NCBI GenBank assembly: GCA_964510285.1
Contig: CAZEAM010000138.1
Span: 1-41,498, forward strand
Source of the DNA: an uncultured Frankiaceae bacterium
Lineage (GTDB): Bacteria; Actinomycetota; Actinomycetes; JAFAQI01
Direction of reading: 5' to 3'
DNA: 41,498 bases
The position numbers and the translations under genes are program-made. Below are positions 7,109 through 41,498 of the stretch, in pieces; the first letter of the stretch is position 1, and each line of letters begins with the position of its first letter. The notes under the pieces were generated by a model. The model was not told the DNA's origin and did no database searches. It was given only the letters and a program-made list of their open reading frames with translations.

Positions 7109-7199
7109 GGCCTGATCGTAAGCGCTGATTCACGTTTGTGTCTGCGGAATGCCCCCGAGGGGTCGGCCGCTCCGCCCACCGCCCTACAGCGGAGACGGG

Positions 7200-7215
7200 T
7201 CTGACGACCCGTCAG
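7200..7215. promoter_or_regulatory. operator-like palindrome, distal copy (TCTGACG-ACC-CGTCAG)
   Basis: Inverted repeat read directly. Same core as the sites at 14656, 16378, 31573 and 35970. Confidence 0.5.
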
Positions 7216-7257
7216 CACGTCCGCCGACCCCGCCCACCGCCCTACAGCGGAGACGGG

Positions 7258-7274
7258 TCTGACGACCCGTCAGA
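7258..7274. promoter_or_regulatory. operator-like palindrome, middle copy (TCTGACG-ACC-CGTCAGA)
   Basis: Inverted repeat read directly. Confidence 0.5.
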
Positions 7275-7314
7275 CGTCCGCCGACCCCGCCCACCGCCCT
7301 ACAGCGGAGACGGG

Positions 7315-7337
7315 TCTGACGACCCGTCAGATATCTT
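7315..7337. promoter_or_regulatory. operator-like palindrome (TCTGACGACCCGTCAGATA) overlapping a -10-like TATCTT hexamer
   Basis: TATCTT (7332..7337) fits TANNNT and ends 6 nt before GTG 7344. This geometry suggests a leaderless transcript. Confidence 0.55.
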
Positions 7338-17564: not shown

Positions 17565-18559
17565 GGCTCGCCGCGGACCAGGACGCGCTCGACTTCGCGG
17601 AGAGCATCGCGGAGCTGCTCGCCGACGTCGCCGACGCTGCGGCGTTGCGGGCGGCGTGGGACGACCCCGACGGCCGAATCCCGGGGGTGTGGAAGCGGCT
17701 CGCCGAGACCGGCCTGCTCGGGCTGACCGTCCCCGAGCAGTACGGCGGGTCCGGCGCCGATCTCACCACGTTGCTGCCGGCGCTGATCGAGCTCGGTCGC
17801 GCCGCACTTCCCGAGCCGGTGGTGGAGACCGTCGTCGGGGCGACGCTCCTGGCGCGTTGCGGCGGCGACCTGGCCGCGCAGTGGCTGCCCCGCGTCGTTG
17901 CGGGTGACGCCGTCATCGCGGTCGGCCTTGGACCCGGCTCGCTGATCAGCGCGGCGCCGTGGGCGGATCTGGTGCTGGTGCAGCGGCCTGACGGGACGGT
18001 TGTCGCCGCGCCGCGCGAAGCTGCGTCGCTGACCGAGCACGCGTCGGTCGACCGCGGCATGCGGTTTGCCTCGGTTGCGGCTGATGACGGCGCGGCGTTG
18101 ACCGGTGCCGACCCCGGTCCGGTGTTCGATCTCGGTGCCGTCGCCTACGCGGCGCTGTTGACCGGCGGGGCGAGGGCGATGCTCGAGATGAGCGTTGACT
18201 ATGCCCGGCAGCGGGAGCAGTTCGGCGTACCGATCGGTTCGTTCCAGGCCATCAAGCACCAGCTCGCCAACGTGTATGTCGGCACCGTCTTCGCCTTGCC
18301 GGTCGTGGCGCGCGGCGCGTGGTCCGTGGCGCACGACGTCCCGACGCGCAGTCGCGACGCCTCGCACGCAAAGCACATCGCGACGGTGTCGGCACAACAG
18401 GCGGCGCGCACCGCGCTTCAGGTGCACGCCGGGATCGGCTACACCTACGAGCACGACCTGCACATGTGGATGAAGCGGACCTGGACGCTGTCCTCGCTGT
18501 GGGGGACCGCGGCCTGGCACAAAGCGCGAGTAGCGAAAGCAGTTTTGGAGGACGCATGA
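17561..18559 (+). CDS. acyl-CoA dehydrogenase family protein (beta-type subunit, catalytic-base motif absent)
   Basis: ATG 17561 overlaps the upstream stop (ATGA). MRLAADQDALDFAESIAELL...GLLGLTVPEQYGGSGADL...REQFGVPIGSFQAIKHQLA...LQVHAGIGYTYEHDLHMWMKR. No G-T-x-E motif near the C-terminus. Confidence 0.8.
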   Translation: MRLAADQDALDFAESIAELLADVADAAALRAAWDDPDGRIPGVWKRLAETGLLGLTVPEQYGGSGADLTTLLPALIELGRAALPEPVVETVVGATLLARCGGDLAAQWLPRVVAGDAVIAVGLGPGSLISAAPWADLVLVQRPDGTVVAAPREAASLTEHASVDRGMRFASVAADDGAALTGADPGPVFDLGAVAYAALLTGGARAMLEMSVDYARQREQFGVPIGSFQAIKHQLANVYVGTVFALPVVARGAWSVAHDVPTRSRDASHAKHIATVSAQQAARTALQVHAGIGYTYEHDLHMWMKRTWTLSSLWGTAAWHKARVAKAVLEDA

Positions 18560-19779
18560 GTGCGCCGTTGGCGGGGATGCGCGTCGTCGAGTGCTCGATG
18601 CTTGGGCCGGCCGCGATCACGAGCGCCCTTGTCGACCTCGGCGCAGAGGTGATCAAGGTCGAGCCGGCCGCCGGTGACTACATCCGGCAGATGACCTGGC
18701 CGATCGTCGAGGGCGTCTCCCTCATGCACCTGCATCTCAACCGCGGCAAGAAGAGCATCACTCTCGACCTGCGCAGCGACGACGGCAAGCAGGTCTTCCG
18801 GGACCTCGCCAAGGACGCCGACGTCGTCGTCGAAGCGATGCGGCCCGGTGCGCTGGAGCGGCTCGGGATCGGGCCGACCGACCTGCGGGAACGCAGCCCG
18901 AAGCTGGTGTTCGCCAGCATCTCCGGGTACGGCGGCACCGGCCCGTACAAGGACTACCCGAGCCACGGCATCGCCTACGACACCTGGGCCGGGATCGTCA
19001 CGCCGCACGTCGATGATGAGGGCTTCACCTACATTCCGGAGCACGTCAGCATCGGGATCTTCGCCGCACCTCTCTATGGCGCCCTCGCGATCCTCGCCGC
19101 CGTGATCCGCGCCAGGGCCACCGGCGAGGGCGCGGAACTCGAGCTCGCCCAGTCCGACTGCGCGGCGGCGTTCGACTGGTACCGCAGCGAGACCTACCGC
19201 GCCTACGAGCGCCCGGAGTCCGAGGTCACGGGCAACCCGAGCGACAACTACGAACGCCGCGCCCCCGGCACCGCCGGCATGAAGGAAGGCGTCCGCTACC
19301 AGATCTACGCGAGCGCGGACGGGCACGTGCTGTTCATGGCGAGCGAGCAGGCGTTCTGGAAGAACTTCTGCGAGGGCGTCGGCCGGATGGATCTGTTCGA
19401 GAAGTGGCCGGGCTCGACGTACGCCGACCACGCCCGCGGCAACCGCGACCTGCAGGCCGAGCTGCGCGACATCTTCGCGACCAAGACGTCGGCGGAGTGG
19501 ATGGAGTTCGGCGGACGGGTCAACACCCCGATCGCACCGGTGAACACCCCGAAGACGCTGGCCGACGACCCGCAGTTCGCCGACCGTTTGGGCTGGCTGC
19601 CGGCCGAGCGGCTCGGCGCCGACCAGCTCGGCTTCCCGGTGCGCTTCGTAGGGGAGGAGCTGCCGGTGCCGGAGAAGGCGCCCACGGTCGGCGAGCACAC
19701 GTACGACGTGCTGCGCGCGGTGTGCGACTACGACGACGAGCAGATCGCGACGCTTCGCAGGTCGGGAGTCCTCGGATGA
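18556..19779 (+). CDS. family III CoA-transferase (CaiB/BaiF-like)
   Basis: ATG 18556 overlaps the upstream stop (ATGA). MSAPLAGMRVVECSMLGPAAITSALVDLGAEVIKVEP...LNRGKKSITLDL...VVVEAMRPGALERLG is typical of the family. Confidence 0.88.
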   Translation: MSAPLAGMRVVECSMLGPAAITSALVDLGAEVIKVEPAAGDYIRQMTWPIVEGVSLMHLHLNRGKKSITLDLRSDDGKQVFRDLAKDADVVVEAMRPGALERLGIGPTDLRERSPKLVFASISGYGGTGPYKDYPSHGIAYDTWAGIVTPHVDDEGFTYIPEHVSIGIFAAPLYGALAILAAVIRARATGEGAELELAQSDCAAAFDWYRSETYRAYERPESEVTGNPSDNYERRAPGTAGMKEGVRYQIYASADGHVLFMASEQAFWKNFCEGVGRMDLFEKWPGSTYADHARGNRDLQAELRDIFATKTSAEWMEFGGRVNTPIAPVNTPKTLADDPQFADRLGWLPAERLGADQLGFPVRFVGEELPVPEKAPTVGEHTYDVLRAVCDYDDEQIATLRRSGVLG

Positions 19780-21308
19780 CCGACGGGCTCCCGCGGAGCA
19801 TCCCGGCGCTGATGCTGCAGGCCGGTCGTGAGCACCGCGACGAAGAGGCGGTCGTCGACGGCGACCGCCGGGTGACGTTCGGCGAGCTCGCACACGTCTC
19901 CCTGAGTGCGGCCGCGGAGTGCATCCGCCGCGGTGTCGAGCCCGGTGACCGGGTCGGCATCTGGGCTCCCAACACCCTCGACTGGGTGGTCGCCGCGCTC
20001 GGCACGCTGGCGGCTGGCGGAGTCCTGGTGCCGCTGAACACGCGCTACAAGGGCGAGGAGGCGAACTGGATCCTCGACCGCAGCGGCGCGAAGCTGTGCT
20101 TCGTCTCACCACCCTTCCTCGGCAACGACTATCCCGCGATGCTCGGTGAGCGGCCGGGTGCGGTCCTCCTCGAGCCGTCCCTGTGGGAGGCGGGCCCGAC
20201 CCGCGAGGTGCACGACCGGATCGACGCGGTCGGCCCCGACGACACCGGCGACCTGATCTTCACCTCGGGCACGACCGGTAAGCCGAAGGGGGTCGTCACC
20301 ACGCAGGCGCAGACGATCAAGGTCTTCGACACCTGGTCGCGCATCGTCGGTGTGCGGGAGGGCGACCGCTACCTCGTCGTCAACCCGTTCTTCCACACCT
20401 TCGGGTACAAGGCCGGCATCATCGCCTGCCTGTTGCGCGGGGCGACGATCGTGCCGCAGCCGGTGTTCGACGTTCCTGCAGTGCTGGATCTCATCGAGCG
20501 CGAGAAGATCACGGTGCTGCCCGGGCCGCCGACGCTCTACCAGTCGATCCTCGACTTCCCGGATCGTGAGCAGCGCGACCTCTCCTCGCTCCGTCTCATC
20601 GTCACCGGCGCCGCCGTCGTACCGGTCGTGCTCATCGAGCGGCTCCGTGACGAGCTGGCCGTCGAGACGATCCTCACGGCGTACGGGCTGACCGAGGCGA
20701 CCGGCACCGTCACCATGTGCCGGCAGGGCGACGACGCCGAGACGATTGCCACCACCTCCGGTCGCGCGATCCCCGACACCGAGGTGCGGATCGTCGACGA
20801 GGCGGGCAACGCCGTCGCGACCGGCGAGCCGGGTGAGGTCGTGGTCCGCGGCTACAACGTGATGAAGGGCTACTACGAGGATCCCGAGGCGACTGCGCAG
20901 ACCATCGACGCGGACGGCTGGCTGCACACCGGCGACATCGGTGTGATGGACGCCGAGGGCAATGTCCGGATCACCGACCGGCTCAAGGACATGTACGTCG
21001 TCGGCGGCTTCAACGCCTATCCCGCGGAGGTCGAGCAGACTCTGGCCCGGCACGAGGCGGTCGCGGAATGTGCGGTGGTCGGCGTGCCCGACGAGCGCCT
21101 CGGCGAGGTCGGGCTGGCGTTCGTCGTGGCGCGACCCGGCATGACCGTCGATCCGGAGGAGATCGTGGCGTGGTGCCGGGAACGCATGGCGAACTTCAAG
21201 GCACCGCGTACGGTGCAGGTCGTGGACGCACTGCCGCGCAACGCCTCGGGCAAGGTCATGAAGTTCGAGCTGCGCAACTCGGTGGTGGGTAGGAGTGCGT
21301 CGGCGTGA
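19776..21308 (+). CDS. AMP-dependent acyl-CoA synthetase
   Basis: ATG 19776 overlaps the upstream stop (ATGA). Motifs FTSGTTGKPKGV, GYGLTE-like AYGLTEATG, GWLHTGDIGVMD and a C-terminal SGKVMK. Confidence 0.9.
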   Translation: MTDGLPRSIPALMLQAGREHRDEEAVVDGDRRVTFGELAHVSLSAAAECIRRGVEPGDRVGIWAPNTLDWVVAALGTLAAGGVLVPLNTRYKGEEANWILDRSGAKLCFVSPPFLGNDYPAMLGERPGAVLLEPSLWEAGPTREVHDRIDAVGPDDTGDLIFTSGTTGKPKGVVTTQAQTIKVFDTWSRIVGVREGDRYLVVNPFFHTFGYKAGIIACLLRGATIVPQPVFDVPAVLDLIEREKITVLPGPPTLYQSILDFPDREQRDLSSLRLIVTGAAVVPVVLIERLRDELAVETILTAYGLTEATGTVTMCRQGDDAETIATTSGRAIPDTEVRIVDEAGNAVATGEPGEVVVRGYNVMKGYYEDPEATAQTIDADGWLHTGDIGVMDAEGNVRITDRLKDMYVVGGFNAYPAEVEQTLARHEAVAECAVVGVPDERLGEVGLAFVVARPGMTVDPEEIVAWCRERMANFKAPRTVQVVDALPRNASGKVMKFELRNSVVGRSASA

Positions 21309-22489
21309 CCGATATCGATCCCAAGCACTTCCGCCGGGTGCTGGGGCACTTCCCGACCGGCGTCGCGGTGATCACCGGAACCGACGCGGACGGCAGGCCC
21401 GGCGGCCTCGCGATCGGCTCCTTCACGTCGGTGTCGCTGGACCCACCGCTGGTCGCCTTCATGCCCGACAAGAACTCCAGCACCTGGCCGCGGATCCGGG
21501 ACGCCGGGAGCTTCTGCGTCAACATCCTCGGGTCCGACCAGGAGGAGGTGTGCCGGACCTTCGCGGTGAGTGGGGGCGACAAGTTCGCGGACCTCACCTG
21601 GAAGCCGGCCGGCTCCGGAGCGCCGATCCTCGACGGCGTACTCGCATGGATCGACTGCGACCTCGAGGTCGTGCATGAAGCCGGTGACCACTACATCGTG
21701 ATCGGGCGGGTGCGTGAGCTCGACGCGGCCGGTACGACGCTGCCGCTGGTGTTCTTCCAAGGCGGGTACGGCCGGTTCTCCTCGCTTTCGCTGGCCGCCT
21801 GGGAGTCCGATCTCGCGTTGCAGATGCGCTCGGCCGACCTCGCCCGCCCGCACATGGAGGCGCTTGCCGCGGAGCTCGACATCGAATGCGTCGCAAGCGC
21901 GATCGTCGGCCCCGACATGGTCCTGCTCGCCCGCGCCGGCCGGCTGCCCACCGGGTCGCTGCCGACCGCGGTCGGCCAGCGGATCCCCTTCGAGCCCCCG
22001 GTCGGCACGGCGTTCGTCGCGTGGGCACCCGAGTCGGCGCAGCGGGCCTGGCTGGACCGGATGGACAAGAACGCGCCGCCCGAGATGCTCGACGCGCTGC
22101 ACCGCACCCTGGCCGAGGTGCGCGAGCACGGCTACTCAGTGGGGCGCGGCCATCGCTGGCACGAGCAGGCCGCGCAGGTGATGGCACGTCCCGACCCGAC
22201 CGTCGACCAGGAGGCGACCACCGAGCAGCTGCACCAGCTGATCGGCCTGCTGCCCGCGGACTACGAGTCGCCGATCGCGAAGTCCGGGGACGCCCGTACC
22301 GTCTCCACACCGGTGTTCGGCCCGGGTGGCGTCGTCGTGATGGTGCTGTCCGCCGTACTCACCGGTGCGCCGTCGATGGCTGGTGACGAGTCACCACTGT
22401 CCGACCTCGACTTCACCGTCGCGCGGCTGCGAACCGCTGCCACTGCTGTCACCGAGGCGCTGCACGGCGCCGCACCCGAGGGGGTCTGA
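21305..22489 (+). CDS. flavin reductase domain fused to an IclR-type C-terminal effector-binding domain (no HTH)
   Basis: GTG 21305 overlaps the upstream stop (GTGA). Residues ~1-160 are flavin-reductase-like (FRRVLGHFPTGVAVITG...GSFTSVSLDPPLVAF...GDHYIVIGRV). Residues ~170-385 resemble IclR_C (ARPHMEALAAELDIECVASAIVG..., LAEVREHGYSVGRG, TVSTPVFGPGGVVVMVLSAV). Confidence 0.8.
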   Translation: MTDIDPKHFRRVLGHFPTGVAVITGTDADGRPGGLAIGSFTSVSLDPPLVAFMPDKNSSTWPRIRDAGSFCVNILGSDQEEVCRTFAVSGGDKFADLTWKPAGSGAPILDGVLAWIDCDLEVVHEAGDHYIVIGRVRELDAAGTTLPLVFFQGGYGRFSSLSLAAWESDLALQMRSADLARPHMEALAAELDIECVASAIVGPDMVLLARAGRLPTGSLPTAVGQRIPFEPPVGTAFVAWAPESAQRAWLDRMDKNAPPEMLDALHRTLAEVREHGYSVGRGHRWHEQAAQVMARPDPTVDQEATTEQLHQLIGLLPADYESPIAKSGDARTVSTPVFGPGGVVVMVLSAVLTGAPSMAGDESPLSDLDFTVARLRTAATAVTEALHGAAPEGV

Positions 22490-22493
22490 CCGG

Positions 22494-23015
22494 ATGTACG
22501 TCAACGCTCACGCGGTCGACTACGCGTCGTTGTTCCTGCGCGCGGCGCTCGGCGTCACCATGCTCGCGCACGGCTACAACCACATGTTCGGCGGCGGCAA
22601 GCTGCCCGGCACCGCGCGCTGGTTCGAGTCGATCGGGATCCGGCCGGGATGGCTGCACGCCCGGCTCGCGACCTTCACCGAGCTCGGCGTGGCCCCGCTG
22701 CTGTTCCTCGGCCTGCTCACGCCGCTCGCCGCGGCCGGCGTGATCGGTGTGATGCTGGTCGCGCTGATCAGCAACCACCTCAAGAACGGCTACTTCATCT
22801 TCCGGCCGGGTGAGGGGTATGAGTACGTCTTGTTCATCACGCTCACTGCGTTCGGTCTCGGCGCCCTCGGCGGCGGCAAGGTGTCGTTGGACAACGCGCT
22901 CGACATCGGCAGCTGGATGTACGGCGGCAAGGGTCTCGCGATCTGCCTGATCGGCGTGGCCGGCGCCCTCCTACTGCTGGCCACCTGCTGGCGCCCGGAG
23001 AAGAAGGCCGACTGA
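22494..23015 (+). CDS. DoxX family membrane protein
   Basis: ATG 22494 lies 4 nt after the upstream stop. 173 aa with about four hydrophobic helices (LFLRAALGVTMLAHGYNHMFGGGKL...IISNHLKNGYF pattern). Confidence 0.8.
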   Translation: MYVNAHAVDYASLFLRAALGVTMLAHGYNHMFGGGKLPGTARWFESIGIRPGWLHARLATFTELGVAPLLFLGLLTPLAAAGVIGVMLVALISNHLKNGYFIFRPGEGYEYVLFITLTAFGLGALGGGKVSLDNALDIGSWMYGGKGLAICLIGVAGALLLLATCWRPEKKAD

Positions 23016-23037
23016 CCTCGGTCGCCCGATAGACAAC

Positions 23038-23060
23038 TTACGTTACGAGTTGTAATGTAA
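23038..23060. promoter_or_regulatory. AT-rich inverted repeat TTACGTTAC-N5-GTAATGTAA (candidate operator/promoter)
   Basis: 8 of 9 arm positions are complementary. Nested ACAACT/AGTTGT repeat. Contains TAATGT (TANNNT). Lies 59 bp upstream of LLM ATG 23119 in an otherwise GC-rich region. Confidence 0.35.
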
Positions 23061-23118
23061 CTCCGACAGCCCCACCGGACAGCCTCACTCGATACCGCGA
23101 CGGAGACGGAGCAGCCTG

Positions 23119-24243
23119 ATGGAGTTCGGCCTATTCATCCAGAACTACGTGCCCAACAGCCGCCGCGAAGTCGACCCGGACGCCGAGCATCACGCGATCC
23201 ATGAGGACATCGAGGCGGTCATCGCGGCCGACAAGGCGGGCTTCAAGTTCGTCTGGCTGACCGAGCACCACTTCCTCGACGAGTACTCCCACCTGTCCGC
23301 CAACGACGTCGTTGCCGGCTACCTCGCCGCGAAGACCGAGCGGATCCACATCGGCGGCGGCATCTTCAACCCGCTGCCCGCGGTGAACCACCCGGCGAAG
23401 CTCGCCGAGCGGGTCAACTATCTCGACCAGATCACTCACGGCCGGGTCGAGTTCGGCACCGGGCGCGGCGCGGGCAGCCACGAGATCCTCGGCTTCCTCG
23501 ACCACCTCGGGATCACCGACACCAACCAGACGAAGGAGATCTGGGAGGACGTCATCCGGGAGTTCCCGAAGATGTTCACCCAGGACACCTACGAGGGCTA
23601 CAAGGGCAAGTACTGGTCATTGCCGCCCCGCAAGATCCTGCCGCGTCCCTACGGCAAGGGGCACGCGCCGCTCTGGTACGCCGCCGGCAACCCGCCGTCG
23701 TATGAGATGGCCGGCCGCATGGGCATGGGCGTGCTCGGGTTCTCTTTGGACCGGTGGGACAAGGTCGAGAAGCTGCGCAAGTCCTACAAGGACGGCATCG
23801 CCAACGCCGAGCCGGTCGGCGCCTTCGTCAACGACAACATCATGTCGTGCATCGCGGCGTACGTCGCCGAGGACAAGGAGACGGCGTTCCAGTCATACGT
23901 CGACTCGAAGCCGAACTATTTGGTGTCCAACGTCTACCGCTACCACGACACGTTCCCGGCGCCGGAGTGGGTGCCGAAGTGGCCGGAGACGCTGCCCGAG
24001 CCCGACCTCGAGACCGCAGCGATGGCCGCCGAGTTCGGCGGCGTGGTGCTCGGTGACCCGGACATGGCGCTCGAGCAGTGCAAGCGCTGGGAGTCCACCG
24101 GCATCGACCAGCTGGTGTTCGGCATCGGTCCGGCGAAGATCGAGGACACGATCCGCACCATTGAGCTGCTCGGCAAGTACGTCATCCCGAAGATCGACAC
24201 CGACCCGGTCGTGTCGACGACCCGCTACCGGGAAAGCGCGTAA
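23119..24243 (+). CDS. LLM-class (luciferase-like) flavin-dependent oxidoreductase/monooxygenase
   Basis: 374-aa ORF MEFGLFIQNYVP...AGFKFVWLTEHHFLDEYSHLS...GRVEFGTGRGAG, a typical luciferase-like TIM-barrel N-terminus. Confidence 0.88.
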   Translation: MEFGLFIQNYVPNSRREVDPDAEHHAIHEDIEAVIAADKAGFKFVWLTEHHFLDEYSHLSANDVVAGYLAAKTERIHIGGGIFNPLPAVNHPAKLAERVNYLDQITHGRVEFGTGRGAGSHEILGFLDHLGITDTNQTKEIWEDVIREFPKMFTQDTYEGYKGKYWSLPPRKILPRPYGKGHAPLWYAAGNPPSYEMAGRMGMGVLGFSLDRWDKVEKLRKSYKDGIANAEPVGAFVNDNIMSCIAAYVAEDKETAFQSYVDSKPNYLVSNVYRYHDTFPAPEWVPKWPETLPEPDLETAAMAAEFGGVVLGDPDMALEQCKRWESTGIDQLVFGIGPAKIEDTIRTIELLGKYVIPKIDTDPVVSTTRYRESA

Positions 24244-24250
24244 TCCCGCC

Positions 24251-24300
24251 GGTTTGTGAGCCGCTGAGTACAGTCCGCTGTATCTAGCGGTTCACAAACC
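24251..24300 (+). other. 15-bp-stem hairpin (GGTTTGTGAGCCGCT / AGCGGTTCACAAACC, 20-nt loop) between the LLM stop and the next RBS
   Basis: Arms are complementary except for one G-U. No U tract follows. The 3' arm ends directly at AAGGGGGG, the SD of the gene starting at 24313. Confidence 0.45.
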
Positions 24301-24312
24301 AAGGGGGGCGTC

Positions 24313-24981
24313 GTGACCGAACCACCGACCGGCGGGCAGCCGCCGGAGCCTGCTGGACCGCCGAGCTACCAGGTCCCGCCGCCGGGCGAGAGCGCTGCGC
24401 CGCCCGTGCCGCCCCCGCCCCCTGCGCCGCCGGTTCCGCCACCTCCTCCGCCGCCCGTGGCAATGCCGCCGCCACCCCCGCCTCCGGGCTACGCGATGGC
24501 TCCTCCGGCAGGCGGTGTGGTGGGCAAGGTCGTCCGGACCAGCGCCGAGGGGTTCTGGTACACCTTGTTCTGCATCTTCTTCGGCGCGGCGTACCTAGCG
24601 AAGGTGCCGGGCAAGAAGGCGCTCAACGACGCGGGTCATGCGCAGATGACTGGTGCCGAGAAGTTCTGGTACGTCGTCGAATGCCTGATGTTCGGCGGCG
24701 GGTACTTCGCGAAGGTCTCCGCGAAGAAGGCGATGAGCGAGGTCGGCATCGCGCAGATGACCGAAGGTGAGCAGACCTGGTACACGATCCTCTGCATTGC
24801 CTGCGGCGCGGGCTACTTCGGCAAGGTGCCGTGGAAGAAGGCGTTCAACGAGATGGGGATGACGCCGCTCACGGGCGCGGAGAACTTCTGGTACGTAATC
24901 CTGTGTCTGAGCTACGGCAACGGCTACTTCCAGAAGACCTTCCACAAGAAGGCGCTCAGCGAGTCGCCGCACTTCCAGTAG
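24313..24981 (+). CDS. hypothetical protein: polyproline N-terminus plus 4 x 37-aa aromatic/Cys repeats
   Basis: 222-aa ORF (GTG start, AAGGGGGG SD). Residues 4-66 are Pro-rich. The W-Y dipeptide falls at residues 82, 119, 156 and 193, an exact 37-aa (111-bp) period. GC3-rich frame. I do not recognise the family. Confidence 0.7.
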   Translation: MTEPPTGGQPPEPAGPPSYQVPPPGESAAPPVPPPPPAPPVPPPPPPPVAMPPPPPPPGYAMAPPAGGVVGKVVRTSAEGFWYTLFCIFFGAAYLAKVPGKKALNDAGHAQMTGAEKFWYVVECLMFGGGYFAKVSAKKAMSEVGIAQMTEGEQTWYTILCIACGAGYFGKVPWKKAFNEMGMTPLTGAENFWYVILCLSYGNGYFQKTFHKKALSESPHFQ

Positions 24982-25015
24982 CGGCTTCGGACGCGAGTGG
25001 CGCGACCGCGATCAC

Positions 25016-25077
25016 CGCGAACTTGCACTTTCATCCCGTTTTGCGCTGAGAAACGGTAGCAATTCGCAAGTTCGGCG
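25016..25077. repeat. 62-bp palindromic intergenic element, copy 1 (CGCGAACTTGCAC...CCCGTTT..AAACGG...GCAAGTTCGGCG)
   Basis: Outer 9-10 bp and inner 6-7 bp stems read directly. Lies 35 nt after the stop at 24981. Confidence 0.8.
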
Positions 25078-25092
25078 GACTAGCAAGTCCTG

Positions 25093-25107
25093 ATTCGACA
25101 GTCGAAT
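25093..25107. promoter_or_regulatory. perfect 15-bp palindrome ATTCGAC-A-GTCGAAT (candidate operator)
   Basis: Read directly, 35 bp upstream of ATG 25142. TAGCGT (25130..25135, TANNNT) ends 6 nt before the ATG. Confidence 0.3.
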
Positions 25108-25141
25108 ATTGCGCCACGTCGGGCGGGTCTAGCGTTAGGTC

Positions 25142-26014
25142 ATGGATCTTGGCGTACATGTTTCGCAGTTCACCTGGCCGGGCGGGCCGGAGCAGCTCGC
25201 CGCCGACCTGACCAACGTGGCTACCGAAGCCGACAGCCTCGGCTTCACGAAGCTGTCCGTGATGGACCACGTCTTCCAGATCATGGTGCTCGGCCCGCCC
25301 GAGCACGAGATGCTCGAGGCCTACACCACCCTCGGCTACCTGGCGGCGCGCACCCAGCGGATCAAGCTGCTCGCCTGGGTGACGGCGACGGTCTACCGCT
25401 CGCCGGGACTGCTCGCGAAGGCGGTGACGACCCTCGACGTGCTCTCCGGCGGTCGCGCCTACCTCGGCATCGGCGCGGCGTGGAACGAGGAGGAGTCCAA
25501 GGGCCTCGGCCTGCACTTCCCGCCGACCGCTGAGCGCTTCGAACGGCTCGAGGAGACGCTGCAGATCTGCCTGCAGATGTGGAGCGACAACGACGGGCCG
25601 TTCAACGGCAAGCACTACCAGCTCGATCGCACCCTCAACTCGCCGCAGGCGCTGTCCAAGCCCCACCCGCCGATCCTGATCGGGGGCGGGGGCGAGAAGA
25701 AGACGCTGCGCCTCGTCGCGCAGTACGCCGACGCGTGCAACCTGTTCGCCGGCCCCGACGCCAGCCACAAGCTCGACGTACTCCGCCAGCACTGCGCCGA
25801 CCTCGGCCGCGACTACGACACGATCGAGAAGACCGTCATGGGTCCCCTCGATCCCGGCAAGGACGGCGAGAACGTCGACTCGCTGCTCGAGTCGATGCGC
25901 AAGCTTCACGATCTCGGCTTCACCCACTACCACGGCACGGTGCCGAACGTTTCCTCCATCAGGCCGCTCGAGATCCTCGCCGAACGCGTCATGCCCGAGG
26001 CCGCCAAGTTCTGA
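25142..26014 (+). CDS. LLM-class F420-dependent oxidoreductase (TIGR03560-like)
   Basis: 290-aa ORF MDLGVHVSQFTWPGG...LGFTKLSVMDHVFQ...LEAYTTLGYLAARTQRIKL...LSGGRAYLGIGAAWNEEE. Confidence 0.85.
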   Translation: MDLGVHVSQFTWPGGPEQLAADLTNVATEADSLGFTKLSVMDHVFQIMVLGPPEHEMLEAYTTLGYLAARTQRIKLLAWVTATVYRSPGLLAKAVTTLDVLSGGRAYLGIGAAWNEEESKGLGLHFPPTAERFERLEETLQICLQMWSDNDGPFNGKHYQLDRTLNSPQALSKPHPPILIGGGGEKKTLRLVAQYADACNLFAGPDASHKLDVLRQHCADLGRDYDTIEKTVMGPLDPGKDGENVDSLLESMRKLHDLGFTHYHGTVPNVSSIRPLEILAERVMPEAAKF

Positions 26015-26080
26015 ACCTGCGGAACCGCCGCTCGTCGGCTGGCGTCCAACCTGCGATCGTTACCGAGGGGGAGGTACGCC

Positions 26081-26590
26081 ATGCGCGGTATCCAGGTGTC
26101 CACAGTCGTCATCTCTGCCGCGATGGCGGCGCTGGCCGGAATGCCACACGCGCTCGCCACTGATGCGCCATCAGTCCTGACTGGCGGCGGACACGGCAGG
26201 TTTCACGTCAGACCGAACAACCTCCCCGACACCGGTACACAGCGGATCGTTCGCGGTCACGGGCACTTCTCGATCGGCGCCGCCAAGATCCGCGGCGTGG
26301 TCAGCGCGCCGGGCTTCGTCCGCGAAGGATCGTGCGGCGTGTCGCTGCGCCTGGCTACCGACACCGGGACGCTCAAGATCGTGGGCCACAGTCAGGTGCG
26401 CTCACGCGACGGGGACCAGCCGATCTGCGACGGGCACGACTTCCGGTTCCGCTTCCACACCGCGAATGCGAGGGGGGCCCTAGCCGAAGCCGACTACCGG
26501 GGTGTCGGGATCCTCGACCTCGAGGACGCATCGAACGAAGCGGTCGACCGCGGAACGTTCAAGGTCCTGCTCCGGGTACCGCGCGACTAA
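26081..26590 (+). CDS. secreted hypothetical protein
   Basis: 169-aa ORF with signal peptide MRGIQVSTVVISAAMAALAGMPHALA and a GGGGGAGG SD. Third-position GC is visibly lower than in neighbouring genes. No family recognised. Confidence 0.6.
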   Translation: MRGIQVSTVVISAAMAALAGMPHALATDAPSVLTGGGHGRFHVRPNNLPDTGTQRIVRGHGHFSIGAAKIRGVVSAPGFVREGSCGVSLRLATDTGTLKIVGHSQVRSRDGDQPICDGHDFRFRFHTANARGALAEADYRGVGILDLEDASNEAVDRGTFKVLLRVPRD

Positions 26591-33455: not shown

Positions 33456-33517
33456 CGCGAACTTGCACTTTCAGCCCGTTTTGGCGAGGAAAACGGTGGT
33501 TTCTTGCAACTTCGGCG
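33456..33517. repeat. 62-bp palindromic intergenic element, copy 2
   Basis: CGCGAACTTGCACTTTCAGCCCGTTTTGGCGAGGAAAACGGTGGTTTCTTGCAACTTCGGCG. Fills the gap between the convergent stops at 33450 (+) and 33521 (-). Confidence 0.8.
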
Positions 33518-39599: not shown

Positions 39600-40442
39600 A
39601 TGGCATACCCCCCGCCCAACTACCCGCTCACGCCGGCTGGCGTCGACGACTACCCGGTGAAGGTCGGCTCGATGCTGCTGACGCTGGTCGACCCGCACAA
39701 GGGCTTCGAGAGCGCATACAACCGCTGGTACGAGCGGGACCACTTCTACGCCGGGTGCATGGAAGGGCCGTGGCAGATCGCCGGCTCGCGCTGGGTGGCC
39801 ACCCGCGAGATGAAGAACCTGCGCTGGGGCGGCAGCGCCGTCGCCGACCCGATCGATGCCGGCTCGTACGTCGCGATCTACTGGGTCGAGGCAGGTCACC
39901 ACAAGGACTGGGACGACTGGGCGCTGCCGCAGGTGCAGCAGCTCTACGCCGACGGCCGCGGCTTCGGCGAGCGGTCGCACGTGCACACCGCCACGTTCGA
40001 CCACGTCGGGGCGATGTACCGCGACGCAGACCCGGTGCCGATCGAGCTCGCGCTCGACCACCACTACGACGGCATCGTCTGCGTCTGGCTGGACGGGCAC
40101 AACGGGTTGGACGCTGCGGCTCTCCACGAACGGATCCGGCTCAGCGACGCGACCAAGGAGCTGTTCGCAGGGTCGGACATCGAGATCGTGTCGTCCTGGA
40201 CGCCGCGGCCGGAGTTCCGCAACTCCCGGGACAACGCGCCGATGGCGCTCGGCTCGCCCGGCGGGCAGGAGAACCGGCTGTGCCAGGTCGCGTTCGTCGG
40301 CGGCGACGTCCGCGCGTCGATCGACTGGTTCCGCGCCTACACGAAGGCGCTCGAAGAGCTGGGCCTCGCGGACACACTTCTCGTCGCGCCGTTCCTGCGC
40401 ACCATCGTCGGAACGGACACCTACGTCGACCAGCTCTGGTAG
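39600..40442 (+). CDS. conserved-looking hypothetical protein (possible tandem alpha+beta barrel, family not recognised)
   Basis: 280-aa ORF whose ATG directly abuts the upstream TAG (39597..39599). GC3-rich. The two halves both open with a hydrophobic strand (MLLTLVDPHKGFESAYNRWYERDHF / IVCVWLDGHNGLDAAALHERI). Confidence 0.65.
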   Translation: MAYPPPNYPLTPAGVDDYPVKVGSMLLTLVDPHKGFESAYNRWYERDHFYAGCMEGPWQIAGSRWVATREMKNLRWGGSAVADPIDAGSYVAIYWVEAGHHKDWDDWALPQVQQLYADGRGFGERSHVHTATFDHVGAMYRDADPVPIELALDHHYDGIVCVWLDGHNGLDAAALHERIRLSDATKELFAGSDIEIVSSWTPRPEFRNSRDNAPMALGSPGGQENRLCQVAFVGGDVRASIDWFRAYTKALEELGLADTLLVAPFLRTIVGTDTYVDQLW

Positions 40443-40652
40443 GTCGTCCGGCGGAACGCCCCCTCGCGGCTCGGTCGTCGGGCGGAACGCCCGCTTAGGT
40501 CGTCGGGCGGAACGCCCGCTCGCGGCTCGGTCGTCGGGCGAACGCCCCCTCGCGGCTCGGGGAAAAGTCGCCGCTTCGCGGCGATGTTTCCCACGCCGCT
40601 CGGTGGGCGTTCCGCCCTCCGACTCTGCGAGGTGCGTTCCGCCCTCCTGCGG
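40442..40652. repeat. repeat array: 4 direct copies of a 25-31 bp unit (GGTCGTCGGGCGGAACGCCC[GCT/CCT]CGCGGCTC) plus 2 inverted copies of its GGGCGGAACGCCC core
   Basis: Direct units at 40442-40472, 40473-40497, 40498-40528 and 40529-40558. Inverted cores at 40605-40623 and 40632-40652. Units are contiguous, with no spacers. Confidence 0.85.
40561..40591. terminator. candidate bidirectional intrinsic terminator hairpin (GGAAAAGTCGCCGC-TTC-GCGGCGATGTTTCC)
   Basis: GC stem of 7-8 bp, extended by GGAAA/TTTCC (an A-tract 5' and a T-tract 3'). Located between the direct and inverted repeat blocks. Confidence 0.4.
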
Positions 40653-41226: not shown

Positions 41227-41232
41227 CGACCT

Positions 41233-41294
41233 CGCCGAACTTGCAGGAATCAACGCTTTCGCGCTCGTTTTCGGTTGGATTGTGCAAGTTCGCG
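41233..41294. repeat. 62-bp palindromic intergenic element, copy 3 (inverted orientation)
   Basis: The reverse complement reads CGCGAACTTGCACAATCCAACCGAAAACGAGCGCGAAAGCGTTGATTCCTGCAAGTTCGGCG. Perfect 10-bp outer stem. Sits between the convergent stops at 41226 (+) and 41297 (-). Confidence 0.8.
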
Positions 41295-41296
41295 GA

Positions 41297-41498
41297 TCAG
41301 CGCCAGGCGAACACGGGTTGCTCGAAGTGGGCGACCCGGGTCGTCCGGCCGTGCAGTGCAAGCTCGCGAAACTGGTAGACGACCGCCGCCGTCGGCGCGT
41401 GGATCCAGGCGCCCAGCATGGGCAGCCGGATGATCGGGTCCGGTGACTCCGGGATCGAGGCGAACATCGGGTCGACGTCGTAGTCGCCGGCATGCGCG
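41297..41498 (-). CDS. hypothetical protein, C-terminal fragment (5' end beyond the right window edge)
   Basis: Absent from the ORF track because no start lies in the window. My reverse-strand translation ends ...[66 protein letters not shown], with TGA at 41299..41297. GC3-rich with balanced composition, unlike the Arg/Pro-rich track ORF 40783..41493. Confidence 0.5.

What the first reader, a model, noticed from the sequence alone, without database searches (positions are those of the whole stretch)
24313..24981. Unrecognised protein: polyproline N-terminus followed by four exact-period 37-aa W-Y/Cys/G-x-G-Y-F repeats
Seen:
- Residues 4-66 are about half proline (PPPPPAPPVPPPPPPPVAMPPPPPPP).
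- Residues 78-222 are four tandem 37-aa repeats (111-bp DNA period, 24544-24978).
- The repeat consensus is [AG]E-x-[FT]-W-Y-x-[ILV]-x-C-[IL]-x-x-G-x-[AG]-Y-[FL]-x-K-[VT]-x-x-K-K-A-[LMF]-x-[DES].
- Each repeat has one invariant Cys, a 15-16 residue hydrophobic/aromatic segment and a KKA basic patch.
- The DNA copies have diverged at synonymous sites while the motif is kept, which argues for a translated, selected protein.

I cannot assign it to any domain family from memory. The hydrophobic segments are short for transmembrane helices, so they could be re-entrant or interfacial helices, or an aromatic repeat fold. The gene sits between two LLM oxidoreductase genes and is bracketed by a large hairpin (24251-24300) and a 62-bp palindromic element (25016-25077). 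Any function, such as a membrane anchor or a proline-rich tail interacting with the aromatic repeats, is speculation.
Basis: partly seen in the sequence, partly recalled or inferred. Interest (0 to 1): 0.7.

Follow-up and report, generated by a model that had tools for sequence, protein, structure and literature searches.

The report
Unnamed actinobacterial 37-residue repeat protein
This is a real, conserved gene for a protein with a polyproline head and four copies of a 37-residue aromatic, lysine-flanked helix motif; it belongs to a small, unnamed family seen so far only in actinobacteria, and it most likely sits in or on the cytoplasmic membrane, with its function still unknown.

Summary
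ORF 24313-24981 (+) encodes 222 aa: residues 4-66 are 56% proline, followed by four exact 37-aa repeats (period-37 self-score 273; best of 2000 shuffles 27). The gene is real. GC3 is 0.87, a strong RBS precedes the start, and a syntenic ortholog in a Mycobacteriales MAG gives dN/dS 0.27.

No Pfam, NCBIfam, PHROG, PADLOC or PDB family matches. Two AlphaFold models are low-confidence and all-helical, with no Foldseek match. A TPR relationship was tested and rejected.

The repeat defines a narrow family: 293 clusters among 1.84 billion representatives. Named members are all Actinomycetota and all are labelled hypothetical. Most are about 90-aa proteins with two repeats. The window's form is an expanded four-repeat version with a polyproline N-terminus.

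Sixteen consecutive uncharged, aromatic/Gly-rich positions are bounded by conserved Glu and Lys. Every repeat has a Lys-rich C-flank. In fusion proteins the repeats lie on the K/R-rich side of a separate canonical TM helix. Together these point to a membrane-embedded or membrane-bound module on the cytoplasmic side.

Whether the helices span the bilayer is unresolved. Gene context gives no functional clue. The flanking 62-nt palindrome is a dispersed repeat, not part of the gene. Moderate interest: a new domain family of unknown function.

The parts
24301..24308 (+). Shine-Dalgarno-like AAGGGGGG, 4 nt upstream of the GTG start
   Evidence: Read directly from the sequence. AAGGGG is also present before the ATG of the syntenic ortholog in L001.
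24313..24981 (+). Coding sequence of 222 aa (GTG start, TAG stop): Pro-rich N-terminus plus four 37-aa repeats
   Evidence: ORF list. GC by codon position is 0.61/0.53/0.87. The ortholog N-terminus MSEQPPGG aligns with MTEPPTGG, and dN/dS is 0.27.
24322..24510 (+). Proline-rich low-complexity region (residues 4-66, 56% Pro, with runs of 5-7 Pro); predicted to have no regular secondary structure
   Evidence: The L001 ortholog also has a Pro-rich N-terminus (longer, many indels). Other clades have Pro/Gln-rich N-termini, and the Streptomyces two-repeat members have none.
24535..24645 (+). Repeat 1 (residues 75-111): RTSAEGFWYTLFCIFFGAAYLAKVPGKKALNDAGHAQ
24646..24756 (+). Repeat 2 (residues 112-148): MTGAEKFWYVVECLMFGGGYFAKVSAKKAMSEVGIAQ
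24757..24867 (+). Repeat 3 (residues 149-185): MTEGEQTWYTILCIACGAGYFGKVPWKKAFNEMGMTP
24868..24978 (+). Repeat 4 (residues 186-222): LTGAENFWYVILCLSYGNGYFQKTFHKKALSESPHFQ

Best explanation
The gene encodes a membrane-associated protein of an undescribed actinobacterial family, and the whole protein lies on the cytoplasmic side.

Each 37-aa repeat has two parts. The first is a short, uncharged, aromatic/Gly-rich helix (positions 7-22, F-W-Y-x-L-x-C-I-x-F-G-x-G-Y-F-A) that buries itself in the cytoplasmic leaflet or packs against its partner helix there. The second is a basic amphipathic helix (K-V-P-x-K-K-A-L-S-E) that lies at the lipid head-group level.

Two repeats make the structural module. 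The window's protein carries two such modules behind a disordered or PPII-like polyproline arm that projects into the cytoplasm. The likely role is a membrane tether or scaffold, or a sensor of lipid packing.

Shown: the gene is real and under purifying selection; the repeat architecture; the family and its distribution; the composition; the fusion architectures. Inferred: membrane location; same-side (monotopic) topology; any role.
For: (1) Real gene. GC3 is 0.87 and there is an RBS. The syntenic ortholog gives dN/dS 0.27 in both the N-terminal part and the repeats.

(2) Buried helix. In 527 distinct units, positions 7-22 carry at most 6% charged residues at any position, even at variable positions. 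They are bounded by E5 (89%) and K23 (100%). Aromatic content is 17% and GRAVY is +0.42 per unit.

(3) Interface-seeking but weakly TM-like. The Wimley-White interfacial sum is -7.1 kcal/mol per helix. Kyte-Doolittle 19-residue means are 0.94-1.13, and only 1.6% of units reach 1.6. The uncorrected Hessa sum is +7.5. DoxX TM helices in the same window score 1.58-2.45 and -1.9 to +3.6.

(4) Same polarity in every repeat. The N-flank has 0.47 K+R and the C-flank 2.87 K+R. Every repeat index keeps 2.4-3.6 K+R in its C-flank. Alternating TM helices would put roughly three conserved Lys outside at every second repeat.

(5) Fusions. In seven longer relatives a separate canonical TM helix (KD 1.84-2.15 in the six that reach a 1.8 threshold) always follows the repeats. 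K+R is higher on the repeat side in 6 of 7, and four have Cys-containing C-terminal domains. N-terminal partners are DUF2510, a weak double zinc ribbon, or Pro/Gln-rich tails. No signal peptide is seen, apart from one suspected chimera, P0009.

(6) Copy number of 2, 3 or 4, with spacing of 37 within pairs and 37 or 42 between pairs.

(7) AF2 predicts only helices, one long or kinked helix plus one short helix per repeat, and no confident tertiary fold.

(8) Positions 12 and 19 covary (i, i+7; z = 10.6 and 4.7), with Gly at one or the other. This indicates a small-residue packing face.
Against: - No experiment and no dedicated topology predictor was available.
- The helix has no charged face at all, whereas classical in-plane amphipathic helices do. 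Its hydrophobic moment is only 0.29.
- It has small-xxx-small patterns, and the 17 uncharged residues between E5 and K23 could span a thin bilayer. The Wimley-White octanol sum is slightly favourable at -3.4.
- AF2 drew continuous 18-21-residue helices in the four-repeat model.
- Even copy numbers dominate: 234 proteins against 11 with three repeats. TM hairpins would also explain that.
- Both AF2 models are low-confidence (pLDDT 65-67).
- One metagenomic protein (P0009) has a signal peptide and a Cu/Zn-SOD fragment in front of the repeats. It sits on an 860-bp contig, and I judge it a probable assembly chimera without having checked.
Confidence: 0.45

Rival explanations
1. It is a small polytopic integral membrane protein. 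Each repeat contributes one short transmembrane helix, so two repeats form a TM hairpin (N-in, C-in) and the window protein has four TM helices. The KKALSE helices lie at both membrane surfaces and the polyproline tail is in the cytoplasm.
For: - There are 16-17 uncharged residues between conserved E5 and K23, with W/Y at one end and Y/F plus a snorkelling Lys at the other.
- Small-xxx-small patterns and the Gly12/Gly19 covariation are typical of TM helix packing.
- The Wimley-White octanol sums are negative.
- AF2 gives continuous 18-21-residue helices in the four-repeat model.
- Copy number is nearly always even.
- The fusions would also work as 3- or 5-TM proteins with N-in and C-out topology.
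Against: - Hydrophobicity is well below that of real TM helices in the same window and in the fusion partners.
- Every repeat has the same strong K/R bias at its C-flank. Any alternating topology would therefore expose about three conserved Lys outside at every second repeat, against the positive-inside rule.
- Apparently complete three-repeat members exist.
- The two-repeat AF2 model breaks the helix at F-G-x-G.
Confidence: 0.3
2. It is a soluble (or self-assembling) alpha-helical repeat protein. The aromatic helices form a buried core and the basic helices form the surface, like a small alpha-solenoid or helical bundle, possibly oligomeric.
For: - The two-repeat AF2 model is helix-turn-helix per repeat, with pTM 0.48.
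- The window's own repeat region has a GRAVY of only +0.04.
- Hydrophobicity is marginal for membrane insertion.
- Variable copy number is typical of solenoid repeats.
Against: - Sixteen consecutive positions are free of charge on every helix face in 527 units. That is not what exposed helices of soluble repeats look like.
- No similarity to TPR was found (hhalign probability 0.24%; no TPR or Sel1 Pfam hits at E<=10).
- No PDB fold matches.
- AF2 gives no confident packing.
- The repeats recur next to a membrane anchor in fusion proteins.
Confidence: 0.12
3. It is a spurious ORF in GC-rich DNA, or a decaying pseudogene, with a repeat that is only a DNA-level feature.
For: - High-GC genomes produce many long chance ORFs; overlapping ORFs on the other strand are listed.
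- The exact protein sequence is not in the 15-billion-protein collection.
Against: - GC3 is 0.87 in this frame and an RBS precedes the start.
- There are 804 homologous clusters at 90% identity and 293 at 50% identity.
- The syntenic ortholog gives dN/dS 0.27.
- The repeat is far better conserved as protein than as DNA, and TRF finds no 111-nt period.
Confidence: 0.01

Closest known systems
In-plane lipid-packing-sensing helices (eukaryotic ALPS motifs; bacterial SpoVM-type small amphipathic helices). Comparison from general knowledge, not from a tool.
   Same: There is a bulky aromatic/hydrophobic face, and the opposite face is made of small uncharged residues (Ala, Gly, Gln, Ser, Asn) with almost no charges. 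The Wimley-White interfacial free energy is strongly favourable at -7 kcal/mol per helix. The location is on the cytoplasmic side.
   Different: There is no sequence relationship. The helix here is only 16-18 residues, occurs in exact 37-residue tandem units, and is followed by an invariant Lys-rich helix. It also has invariant W, Y, G and Y positions and a mostly conserved Cys, which ALPS motifs lack. Membrane binding is untested.
TPR / Sel1-like alpha-hairpin repeats
   Same: The repeat length is similar (37 against 34-36 residues). The strings look alike (AE-x-F-W-Y-x-L-G ... K-K-A-L-S-E against the TPR consensus AEAWYNLG ... QKALEL). The two-repeat AF2 model is helix-turn-helix per repeat.
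   Different: The profile comparison with a consensus TPR gives 0.24% probability and aligns only 8 columns. No TPR or Sel1 Pfam model scores at E<=10. The W-to-KAL spacing differs by two residues. The helices lack the polar surface of TPRs. The best Foldseek hit, the TPR-like Fis1, has E = 1.2 and TM-score 0.24-0.39.
Small helical-hairpin membrane proteins that pack through small-xxx-small faces (for example ATP synthase c subunits). Comparison from general knowledge.
   Same: These are pairs of short hydrophobic helices rich in Gly and Ala. The module duplicates from two helices to four. Covariation places a Gly at alternative positions on one helix face.
   Different: There is no sequence or profile similarity to any solved structure. 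Hydrophobicity is much lower. Each helix carries the same flank-charge polarity, which is not expected for alternating TM helices.
Actinobacterial membrane proteins with cytoplasmic Pro-rich or DUF2510 N-termini
   Same: The architecture is a low-complexity Pro- or Pro/Gln-rich or DUF2510 N-terminus followed by a membrane-associated region. Three family members really do carry DUF2510 in front of the repeats.
   Different: The window protein has no DUF2510 or any other Pfam domain. The membrane-associated part is this new 37-residue repeat rather than a known DUF.

Membership tests
Any curated protein family (Pfam-A, NCBIfam, PHROGs, PADLOC) | Score at or above the curated cut-off of a family model | tested here: not met
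   Pfam gives 0 hits at E<=10 for the window protein. The only NCBIfam hit is a low-complexity match at E = 8.9. PHROGs has nothing below E = 0.02, and PADLOC finds nothing.
Pfam DUF7625 (PF24620) | Whole-protein score of at least 27 bits over the 95-position model | tested here: not met
   34 of 105 family members give sub-threshold hits, with a best E of 0.0015. In the rows inspected these score 14.6-18.9 bits and cover only 22-25 residues (model positions 38-62). The window protein gives no hit. This is a weak lead, not membership.
TPR-like repeats | 34-residue helix-turn-helix repeat matching the TPR profile or consensus | tested here: not met
   hhalign of the family profile against a consensus TPR triple repeat gives 0.24% probability. 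The period is 37. There are no TPR Pfam hits.
Classical polytopic membrane protein | Hydrophobic helices of about 19 or more residues at TM-level hydrophobicity | tested here: inconclusive
   KD19 is 0.95-1.39 in the window protein, against 1.58-2.45 for DoxX TM helices in the same window. Only 1.6% of family units reach 1.6. However, the Wimley-White octanol sums are mostly negative.
Classical polytopic membrane protein | Alternating loop charge (positive-inside rule) | tested here: not met
   All repeat indices keep 2.4-3.6 K+R in the C-flank and about 0.2-0.6 in the N-flank. No loop class is depleted of Lys/Arg.
In-plane ALPS-like or SpoVM-like membrane-binding helix (functional class, not a homology family) | Amphipathic helix with a bulky hydrophobic face and a small, uncharged polar face | tested here: inconclusive
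   The composition fits: charge is absent from positions 7-22 and small residues occupy positions 12, 15, 18, 19 and 22. But the hydrophobic moment is modest at 0.29 and the helix is short.
In-plane ALPS-like or SpoVM-like membrane-binding helix (functional class, not a homology family) | Demonstrated reversible binding to membranes or to curved membranes | not testable with these tools
   This needs liposome flotation or binding assays, or localisation in cells.
The new family itself (37-residue W-Y/C/G-x-G-Y-F/K-x4-K-A repeat) | At least two tandem units with the invariant W8, Y9, G17, Y20, K23, K28 and A29 positions at 37-residue spacing | tested here: met
   The window protein has four units, each with all seven of these residues.

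The most novel reading that the evidence does not exclude
The 37-residue unit is a previously undescribed membrane module. One version is a new monotopic or in-plane, lipid-binding or curvature-sensing repeat on the cytoplasmic leaflet of actinobacterial membranes. The other is a tandem array of single-helix units whose identical charge polarity makes any transmembrane topology 'frustrated'. The second version would be a natural snapshot of how antiparallel helix pairs and inverted repeats arise from duplication of a one-helix protein. In either version it would define a new fold or family with its own mode of membrane interaction, and the conserved Cys/Asn and Gly12/Gly19 positions would form a specific helix-helix or ligand site.
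Probability: 0.2. Interest if true: 0.65.

Novelty: new variant of a known kind. Interest (0 to 1): 0.4.

Why it matters
The repeat defines a clean family that can be modelled, and none of the four libraries scanned here (Pfam-A, NCBIfam, PHROGs, PADLOC) covers it. It has at least 804 clusters at 90% identity and 293 at 50% identity. Named members are all Actinomycetota, including many cultured Streptomyces and Actinacidiphila.

The family could be deposited as a new repeat/DUF model straight away.

If the module turns out to be a membrane-binding or membrane-embedded element with identical polarity in each copy, it adds a new type of bacterial membrane anchor or scaffold. The system is easy to study: the basic form is a 90-aa protein in culturable Streptomyces, and one native Cys per repeat gives ready-made probes for topology mapping.

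For annotating this window, the finding turns a 'hypothetical protein' into 'Pro-rich, four-repeat member of a conserved actinobacterial membrane-associated family'. It also shows that the neighbouring palindrome is an unrelated dispersed element.

Tried and rejected
- **Curated libraries and solved structures.** Pfam, NCBIfam, PHROGs and PADLOC scans of the window protein and of family members gave nothing above cut-off. CAK-anch_MAT1, DUF7625 and DUF6693 gave only short sub-threshold matches. PDB sequence and profile searches gave nothing.
- **Structure.** Two AlphaFold2 runs, with 47- and 105-sequence alignments, gave pLDDT 65-67 and pTM 0.32 and 0.48. Foldseek against the PDB gave best E of about 1, so the matches are meaningless.
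- **TPR.** This hypothesis came from the AE-x-WY-x-LG ... KAL resemblance. It was rejected by hhalign.
- **Guilt by association.** Ten contexts from different clades share no partner gene. The LLM neighbours are conserved only in the close MAG relative (L001). A NUDIX-SCP2-gene-DAO-LLM block is conserved only within one Actinacidiphila/Streptomyces subclade.
- **Mobile-element origin.** There are no relatives in 72,556 plasmid or 50,697 phage records.
- **Known RNA elements.** Rfam at gathering thresholds found only tRNAs, in one homolog locus. No sigma-70-type promoter or canonical intrinsic terminator flanks the gene.
- **Helix orientation from covariation.** MI-APC on 228 two-repeat modules (Neff 94) gave intra-helix and in-register signals only. 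That is inconclusive.
- **DNA-level repeat.** TRF does not detect the 111-nt period.
- **Literature.** Searches for DUF2510, DUF7625 and generic descriptions found nothing relevant.
Full report

Yes. Window 24313-24981 (+) is an open reading frame of 222 codons starting with GTG. An AAGGGGGG Shine-Dalgarno-like sequence lies at 24301-24308, 4 nt upstream of the start. GC content by codon position is 0.61/0.53/0.87, the signature of a translated frame in a window that is 69% GC overall. The overlapping reverse-strand ORFs are the usual high-GC by-products.

Residues 4-66 are 55.6% proline, with runs of five to seven Pro. Residues 75-222 are four head-to-tail units of exactly 37 residues. The BLOSUM62 self-comparison scores 273 at offset 37, 205 at 74 and 89 at 111. 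The best offset in any of 2000 shuffles scored 27.

The copies are 43-57% identical as protein and 56-67% identical as DNA. Tandem Repeats Finder does not report the 111-nt period. So this is an old protein-level repeat, not a recent DNA duplication.

A six-frame motif scan finds only these four units in the window.

**2. Is it a real gene?**

A Mycobacteriales MAG contig (L001, DATAVE010000089.1) is syntenic with window 18199-26590. Its flavin reductase/IclR fusion, DoxX and two luciferase-like monooxygenases are 75-88% identical at the protein level, and the next ORF downstream (window 26081-26590) is 49% identical. A four-repeat, polyproline-headed ortholog sits in the same slot between the two LLM genes.

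The Nei-Gojobori comparison gives dN/dS 0.27 for the repeats and 0.27 for the N-terminal part, at dS of about 1.0-1.35. The frame is therefore under purifying selection. It evolves faster than its neighbours: 65% identity in the repeat region against 75-88% for the four flanking enzyme and membrane genes. The alignment of the Pro-rich part is ambiguous, so its dN/dS value is approximate.

The exact sequence is absent from the 15-billion-protein collection.

**3. What family is it?**

No curated library recognises it.
- Pfam-A gives no hit even at E<=10.
- NCBIfam gives only a low-complexity match at E = 8.9.
- PHROGs and PADLOC give nothing.
- The PDB gives nothing by sequence or by family profile.

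A full-length search returned only 29 relatives. I suspected, without testing it, that polyproline words swamped the candidate list. A profile of the two-repeat module (alignment A2) found 804 clusters at 90% identity. An exhaustive HMMER scan of 1.84 billion 50%-identity representatives found 293 clusters at E<=1e-3, 224 at E<=1e-10 and 102 at E<=1e-30. The family is real but narrow.

Every source name is 'hypothetical' or 'uncharacterized', except one metagenomic label, 'HAMP domain-containing protein' on P0041, which has no Pfam support. Every named organism is an actinomycete: Streptomyces, Actinacidiphila, Tomitella, Trebonia, Streptosporangiaceae, Nocardioidaceae, and Frankiales and Mycobacteriales MAGs. 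There are no relatives in the plasmid or phage collections.

**4. Anatomy of the family**

The consensus unit is x-T-G-A-E-x-F-W-Y-V-L-x-C-I-x-F-G-A-G-Y-F-A-K-V-P-x-K-K-A-L-S-E-x-G-L-x-x. In 527 distinct units:
- W8, Y9, Y20, K23, K28 and A29 are at least 98% conserved.
- G17 is 97% conserved.
- E5 is 89% conserved.
- C13 is 86% conserved, with Asn as the usual alternative.

Among 283 stored members in which the motif scan found at least one unit, 208 have two repeats, 26 have four, 11 have three, and 38 have one; I take most of the last group to be fragments. The typical member is a protein of 78-130 aa. In Streptomyces it is about 90 aa, begins MAERQYLGQG and has no Pro-rich head.

Spacing is always 37 within the first and second pair. 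Between pairs it is 37 or 42. Two repeats are therefore the structural module, and the window's protein is a doubled module with an added polyproline N-terminus.

N-terminal extensions vary by clade: polyproline here and in L001, Pro/Gln-rich in a large metagenomic clade, and DUF2510 in three proteins.

**5. Physical character of the repeat**

Positions 7-22, sixteen in a row, carry at most 6% charged residues at any position. This holds even where the position is variable (entropy up to 2.6 bits). The substitutions stay hydrophobic or small. Exposed helices of soluble repeats do not look like this, so the segment is buried in lipid or in protein.

Hydrophobicity is marginal for a classical TM helix.
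- 19-residue Kyte-Doolittle means are 0.94-1.13, and 1.6% of units reach 1.6.
- The uncorrected Hessa sum is +7.5 kcal/mol.
- The Wimley-White octanol sum is -3.4.
- The Wimley-White interfacial sum is -7.1.

As a benchmark from the same window, the four DoxX TM helices (22365-23015) score 1.58-2.45 on Kyte-Doolittle and -1.9 to +3.6 on the Hessa sum. The four repeat helices score 0.95-1.39 and +3.3 to +7.5.

Each unit has the same charge polarity: an acidic N-flank (0.47 K+R, 0.98 D+E) and a basic C-flank (2.87 K+R). All repeat indices keep 2.4-3.6 K+R in the C-flank.

Covariation on 228 two-repeat modules (Neff 94) is strongest between positions 12 and 19 of the same repeat, with z = 10.6 in repeat 1 and 4.7 in repeat 2. 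A Gly sits at one position or the other, which is what a small-residue packing face on a continuous helix would give. No antiparallel inter-repeat pattern emerged.

**6. Structure prediction**

- AlphaFold2 on the window protein (47-sequence alignment) gave mean pLDDT 66.6 and pTM 0.32. The Pro-rich part has no regular secondary structure. Each repeat has a long helix of 13-21 residues and a short one of 7-9.
- AlphaFold2 on a 90-aa Streptomyces member (105 sequences) gave pLDDT 64.9 and pTM 0.48. Here each long helix breaks at F-G-x-G into a helix-turn-helix.
- Foldseek against the PDB gave nothing for either model. Best E values were 1.1 and 1.2, with TM-scores of at most 0.41.

The models agree only that the protein is all-helical. 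They do not settle the fold.

**7. Fusion architectures**

These are the most informative evidence. Seven longer relatives (P0153, P0159, P0162, P0201, P0211, P0236, P0241) place two or four repeats N-terminal to a separate hydrophobic TM helix. Six of these helices reach KD19 1.84-2.15. All but P0201 continue into a C-terminal domain of 85-317 residues, and four of those domains contain 2-8 Cys.

K+R counts in the 15 residues before and after that helix are 3/1, 3/1, 1/1, 4/0, 2/0, 2/0 and 3/1. By the positive-inside rule (established knowledge), the repeat side is cytoplasmic.

N-terminal partners are DUF2510 (P0159, P0211, P0152) and a weak, sub-threshold double zinc ribbon (P0201, E = 0.005).

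One exception needs stating. P0009 carries a signal peptide and a fragment of Cu/Zn superoxide dismutase in front of the repeats. It is a single sequence on an 860-bp contig. I judge it an assembly chimera but did not verify this.

**8. Most likely mechanism**

Putting sections 5-7 together, the protein is membrane-associated on the cytoplasmic side. The aromatic/Gly helix of each unit is buried in the inner leaflet and/or against its partner helix. The K-V-P-x-K-K-A-L-S-E helix lies at the anionic head groups. Two units pair through the small-residue face. The polyproline arm projects into the cytoplasm.

I put 0.45 on this same-side (monotopic or in-plane) model. I put 0.30 on the rival in which each long helix spans the bilayer, giving four TM helices.

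The same-side model is favoured for four reasons:
- Identical charge polarity in every unit would force conserved lysines outside in any alternating topology.
- Hydrophobicity is low.
- Three-repeat members exist.
- The family adds a canonical TM helix when it needs to place a domain outside the cell.

The TM model is favoured by five observations:
- No face of the helix carries charge.
- Small-xxx-small patterns are present.
- The E5-K23 span is 17 residues.
- AF2 draws continuous helices in one model.
- Even copy numbers predominate.

A soluble aromatic-core repeat gets 0.12 and a spurious ORF 0.01.

The biological role is not determined. I suggest a tether, a scaffold or a sensor of lipid packing. 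This is inference only.

**9. Context**

The gene lies between two LLM genes (23119-24243 and 25142-26014) in a block rich in lipid and CoA metabolism genes. That arrangement is shared only with L001. Elsewhere the family gene is usually monocistronic, with a 280-780-nt upstream gap, and the neighbours are unrelated:
- SmpB and TMEM175 (L035)
- a PNPOx-family gene and a sigma-70 gene (L036)
- a NUDIX-SCP2 / DAO-LLM block in one Actinacidiphila/Streptomyces subclade
- glutamine synthetase and GlnE in the main Streptomyces clade
- integrases or transposases in three others

An LLM gene lies within about 3 kb in three separate clades (window/L001, L002 and the Actinacidiphila-type subclade). LLM genes are very common in these genomes (general knowledge), so I give this little weight.

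**10. The two flanking elements**

The upstream hairpin has 23-nt arms at 24251-24273 and 24278-24300. It folds at -40.5 kcal/mol (z = -8.4) and is unique in the window. It begins 8 nt after the LLM stop codon and ends 1 nt before the RBS.

L001 has a different, T-tailed, terminator-like hairpin at the same place. I therefore read both hairpins as 3'-end, terminator or stabiliser structures of the upstream gene, and not as part of the repeat gene. That reading is inference. The window's hairpin has no T-run, and the consensus scan found no terminator.

The 62-nt palindrome at 25016-25077 has a 77%-identical copy at 33456-33517 and a further reverse-strand copy near 41230-41310. L001 lacks it. 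It is a dispersed REP/MITE-like intergenic element.

**11. Comparison with known things, and novelty**

It is not a TPR. hhalign gives 0.24% probability, the period is 37, and no Pfam TPR model hits. It is not a member of any curated family. DUF7625 gives short sub-threshold matches in 34 of 105 members, which is a lead worth an HHpred test but is not membership.

Functionally it most resembles two classes: in-plane helices with a bulky hydrophobic face and a small uncharged face (ALPS- or SpoVM-like), and small Gly/Ala-packed helical hairpins. Both comparisons come from general knowledge, and neither is a homology claim.

The polyproline head is typical of Actinobacteria. Their proteomes carry more than one XPPX motif per protein, translated with an unmodified EF-P (bioRxiv 10.1101/2023.09.18.558224, read). 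Dependence of this particular protein on EF-P is inferred.

Overall this is a new, well-defined family of a broadly familiar kind: a small membrane-associated helical protein with a low-complexity cytoplasmic tail. It is interesting enough to model and test, but nothing yet points to an unusual mechanism.

Noticed in passing
window 25016-25077; 33456-33517; about 41230-41310 (- strand): A roughly 62-nt palindromic element (CGCGAACTTGCAC...CCGTTTT...AAAACGG...GCAAGTTCGGCG) occurs at least three times in intergenic DNA of this 41-kb window. The 25016 and 33456 copies are 77% identical. The syntenic spacer of L001 lacks it. It looks like a REP/MITE-like dispersed repeat.
   Followed up: partly
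window 24251-24300: A very stable near-perfect hairpin (23-nt arms, -40.5 kcal/mol, z = -8.4) sits between the LLM stop codon and the RBS of the repeat gene, with no T-run. The ortholog locus L001 has an unrelated T-tailed hairpin at the same position (about L001:4775-4820). It is probably a 3'-end structure of the upstream gene.
   Followed up: partly
L006-L028, about 200-230 nt upstream of the family gene (e.g. L011:5804-6015): The Streptomyces/Actinacidiphila two-repeat genes are preceded by a strongly conserved block. It has a promoter-like GTGACG-17 nt-TATGCT followed by a leader of about 200 nt. The leader contains a palindrome (GCTGGTCGTCA/TGACGACCAGC) with a UA-to-CG compensatory change in 4 of 14 sequences. 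Rfam has no match, and overall covariation is weak (-0.73). This may be an undescribed cis-regulatory leader. The window gene lacks it.
   Followed up: partly
window 7159-7330: Three tandem copies of a 57-nt unit (86-100% identical), each containing a GACGGGTC...GACCCGTC hairpin, lie in the intergenic region just upstream of the ORF that starts near 7320 (family D3).
   Followed up: no
window 40440-40540: Two copies of a 45-nt unit (96% identical, 56 nt apart) lie immediately after the ORF ending at 40442 (family D12).
   Followed up: no
window 26081-26590 (+): A 169-aa ORF with no Pfam match has an N-terminus that looks like a signal peptide (MRGIQVSTVVISAAMAALAGMPHALA). It is conserved in L001 at only 49% identity, much lower than its neighbours.
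   Followed up: no
window 21305-22489 (+): A single 394-aa ORF combines a flavin-reductase domain (residues 13-157) with an IclR C-terminal ligand-binding domain (residues 177-290). This is an unusual enzyme-regulator fusion, and it is 82% identical in L001.
   Followed up: no
P0009 (metagenomic homolog, 860-bp contig); also P0019, P0232, P0235, P0244: P0009 joins a signal peptide and a Cu/Zn-SOD fragment to four repeats. It is probably an assembly chimera, but if real it would contradict a cytoplasmic N-terminus. Several other metagenomic homologs look frameshifted within the last repeats.
   Followed up: no
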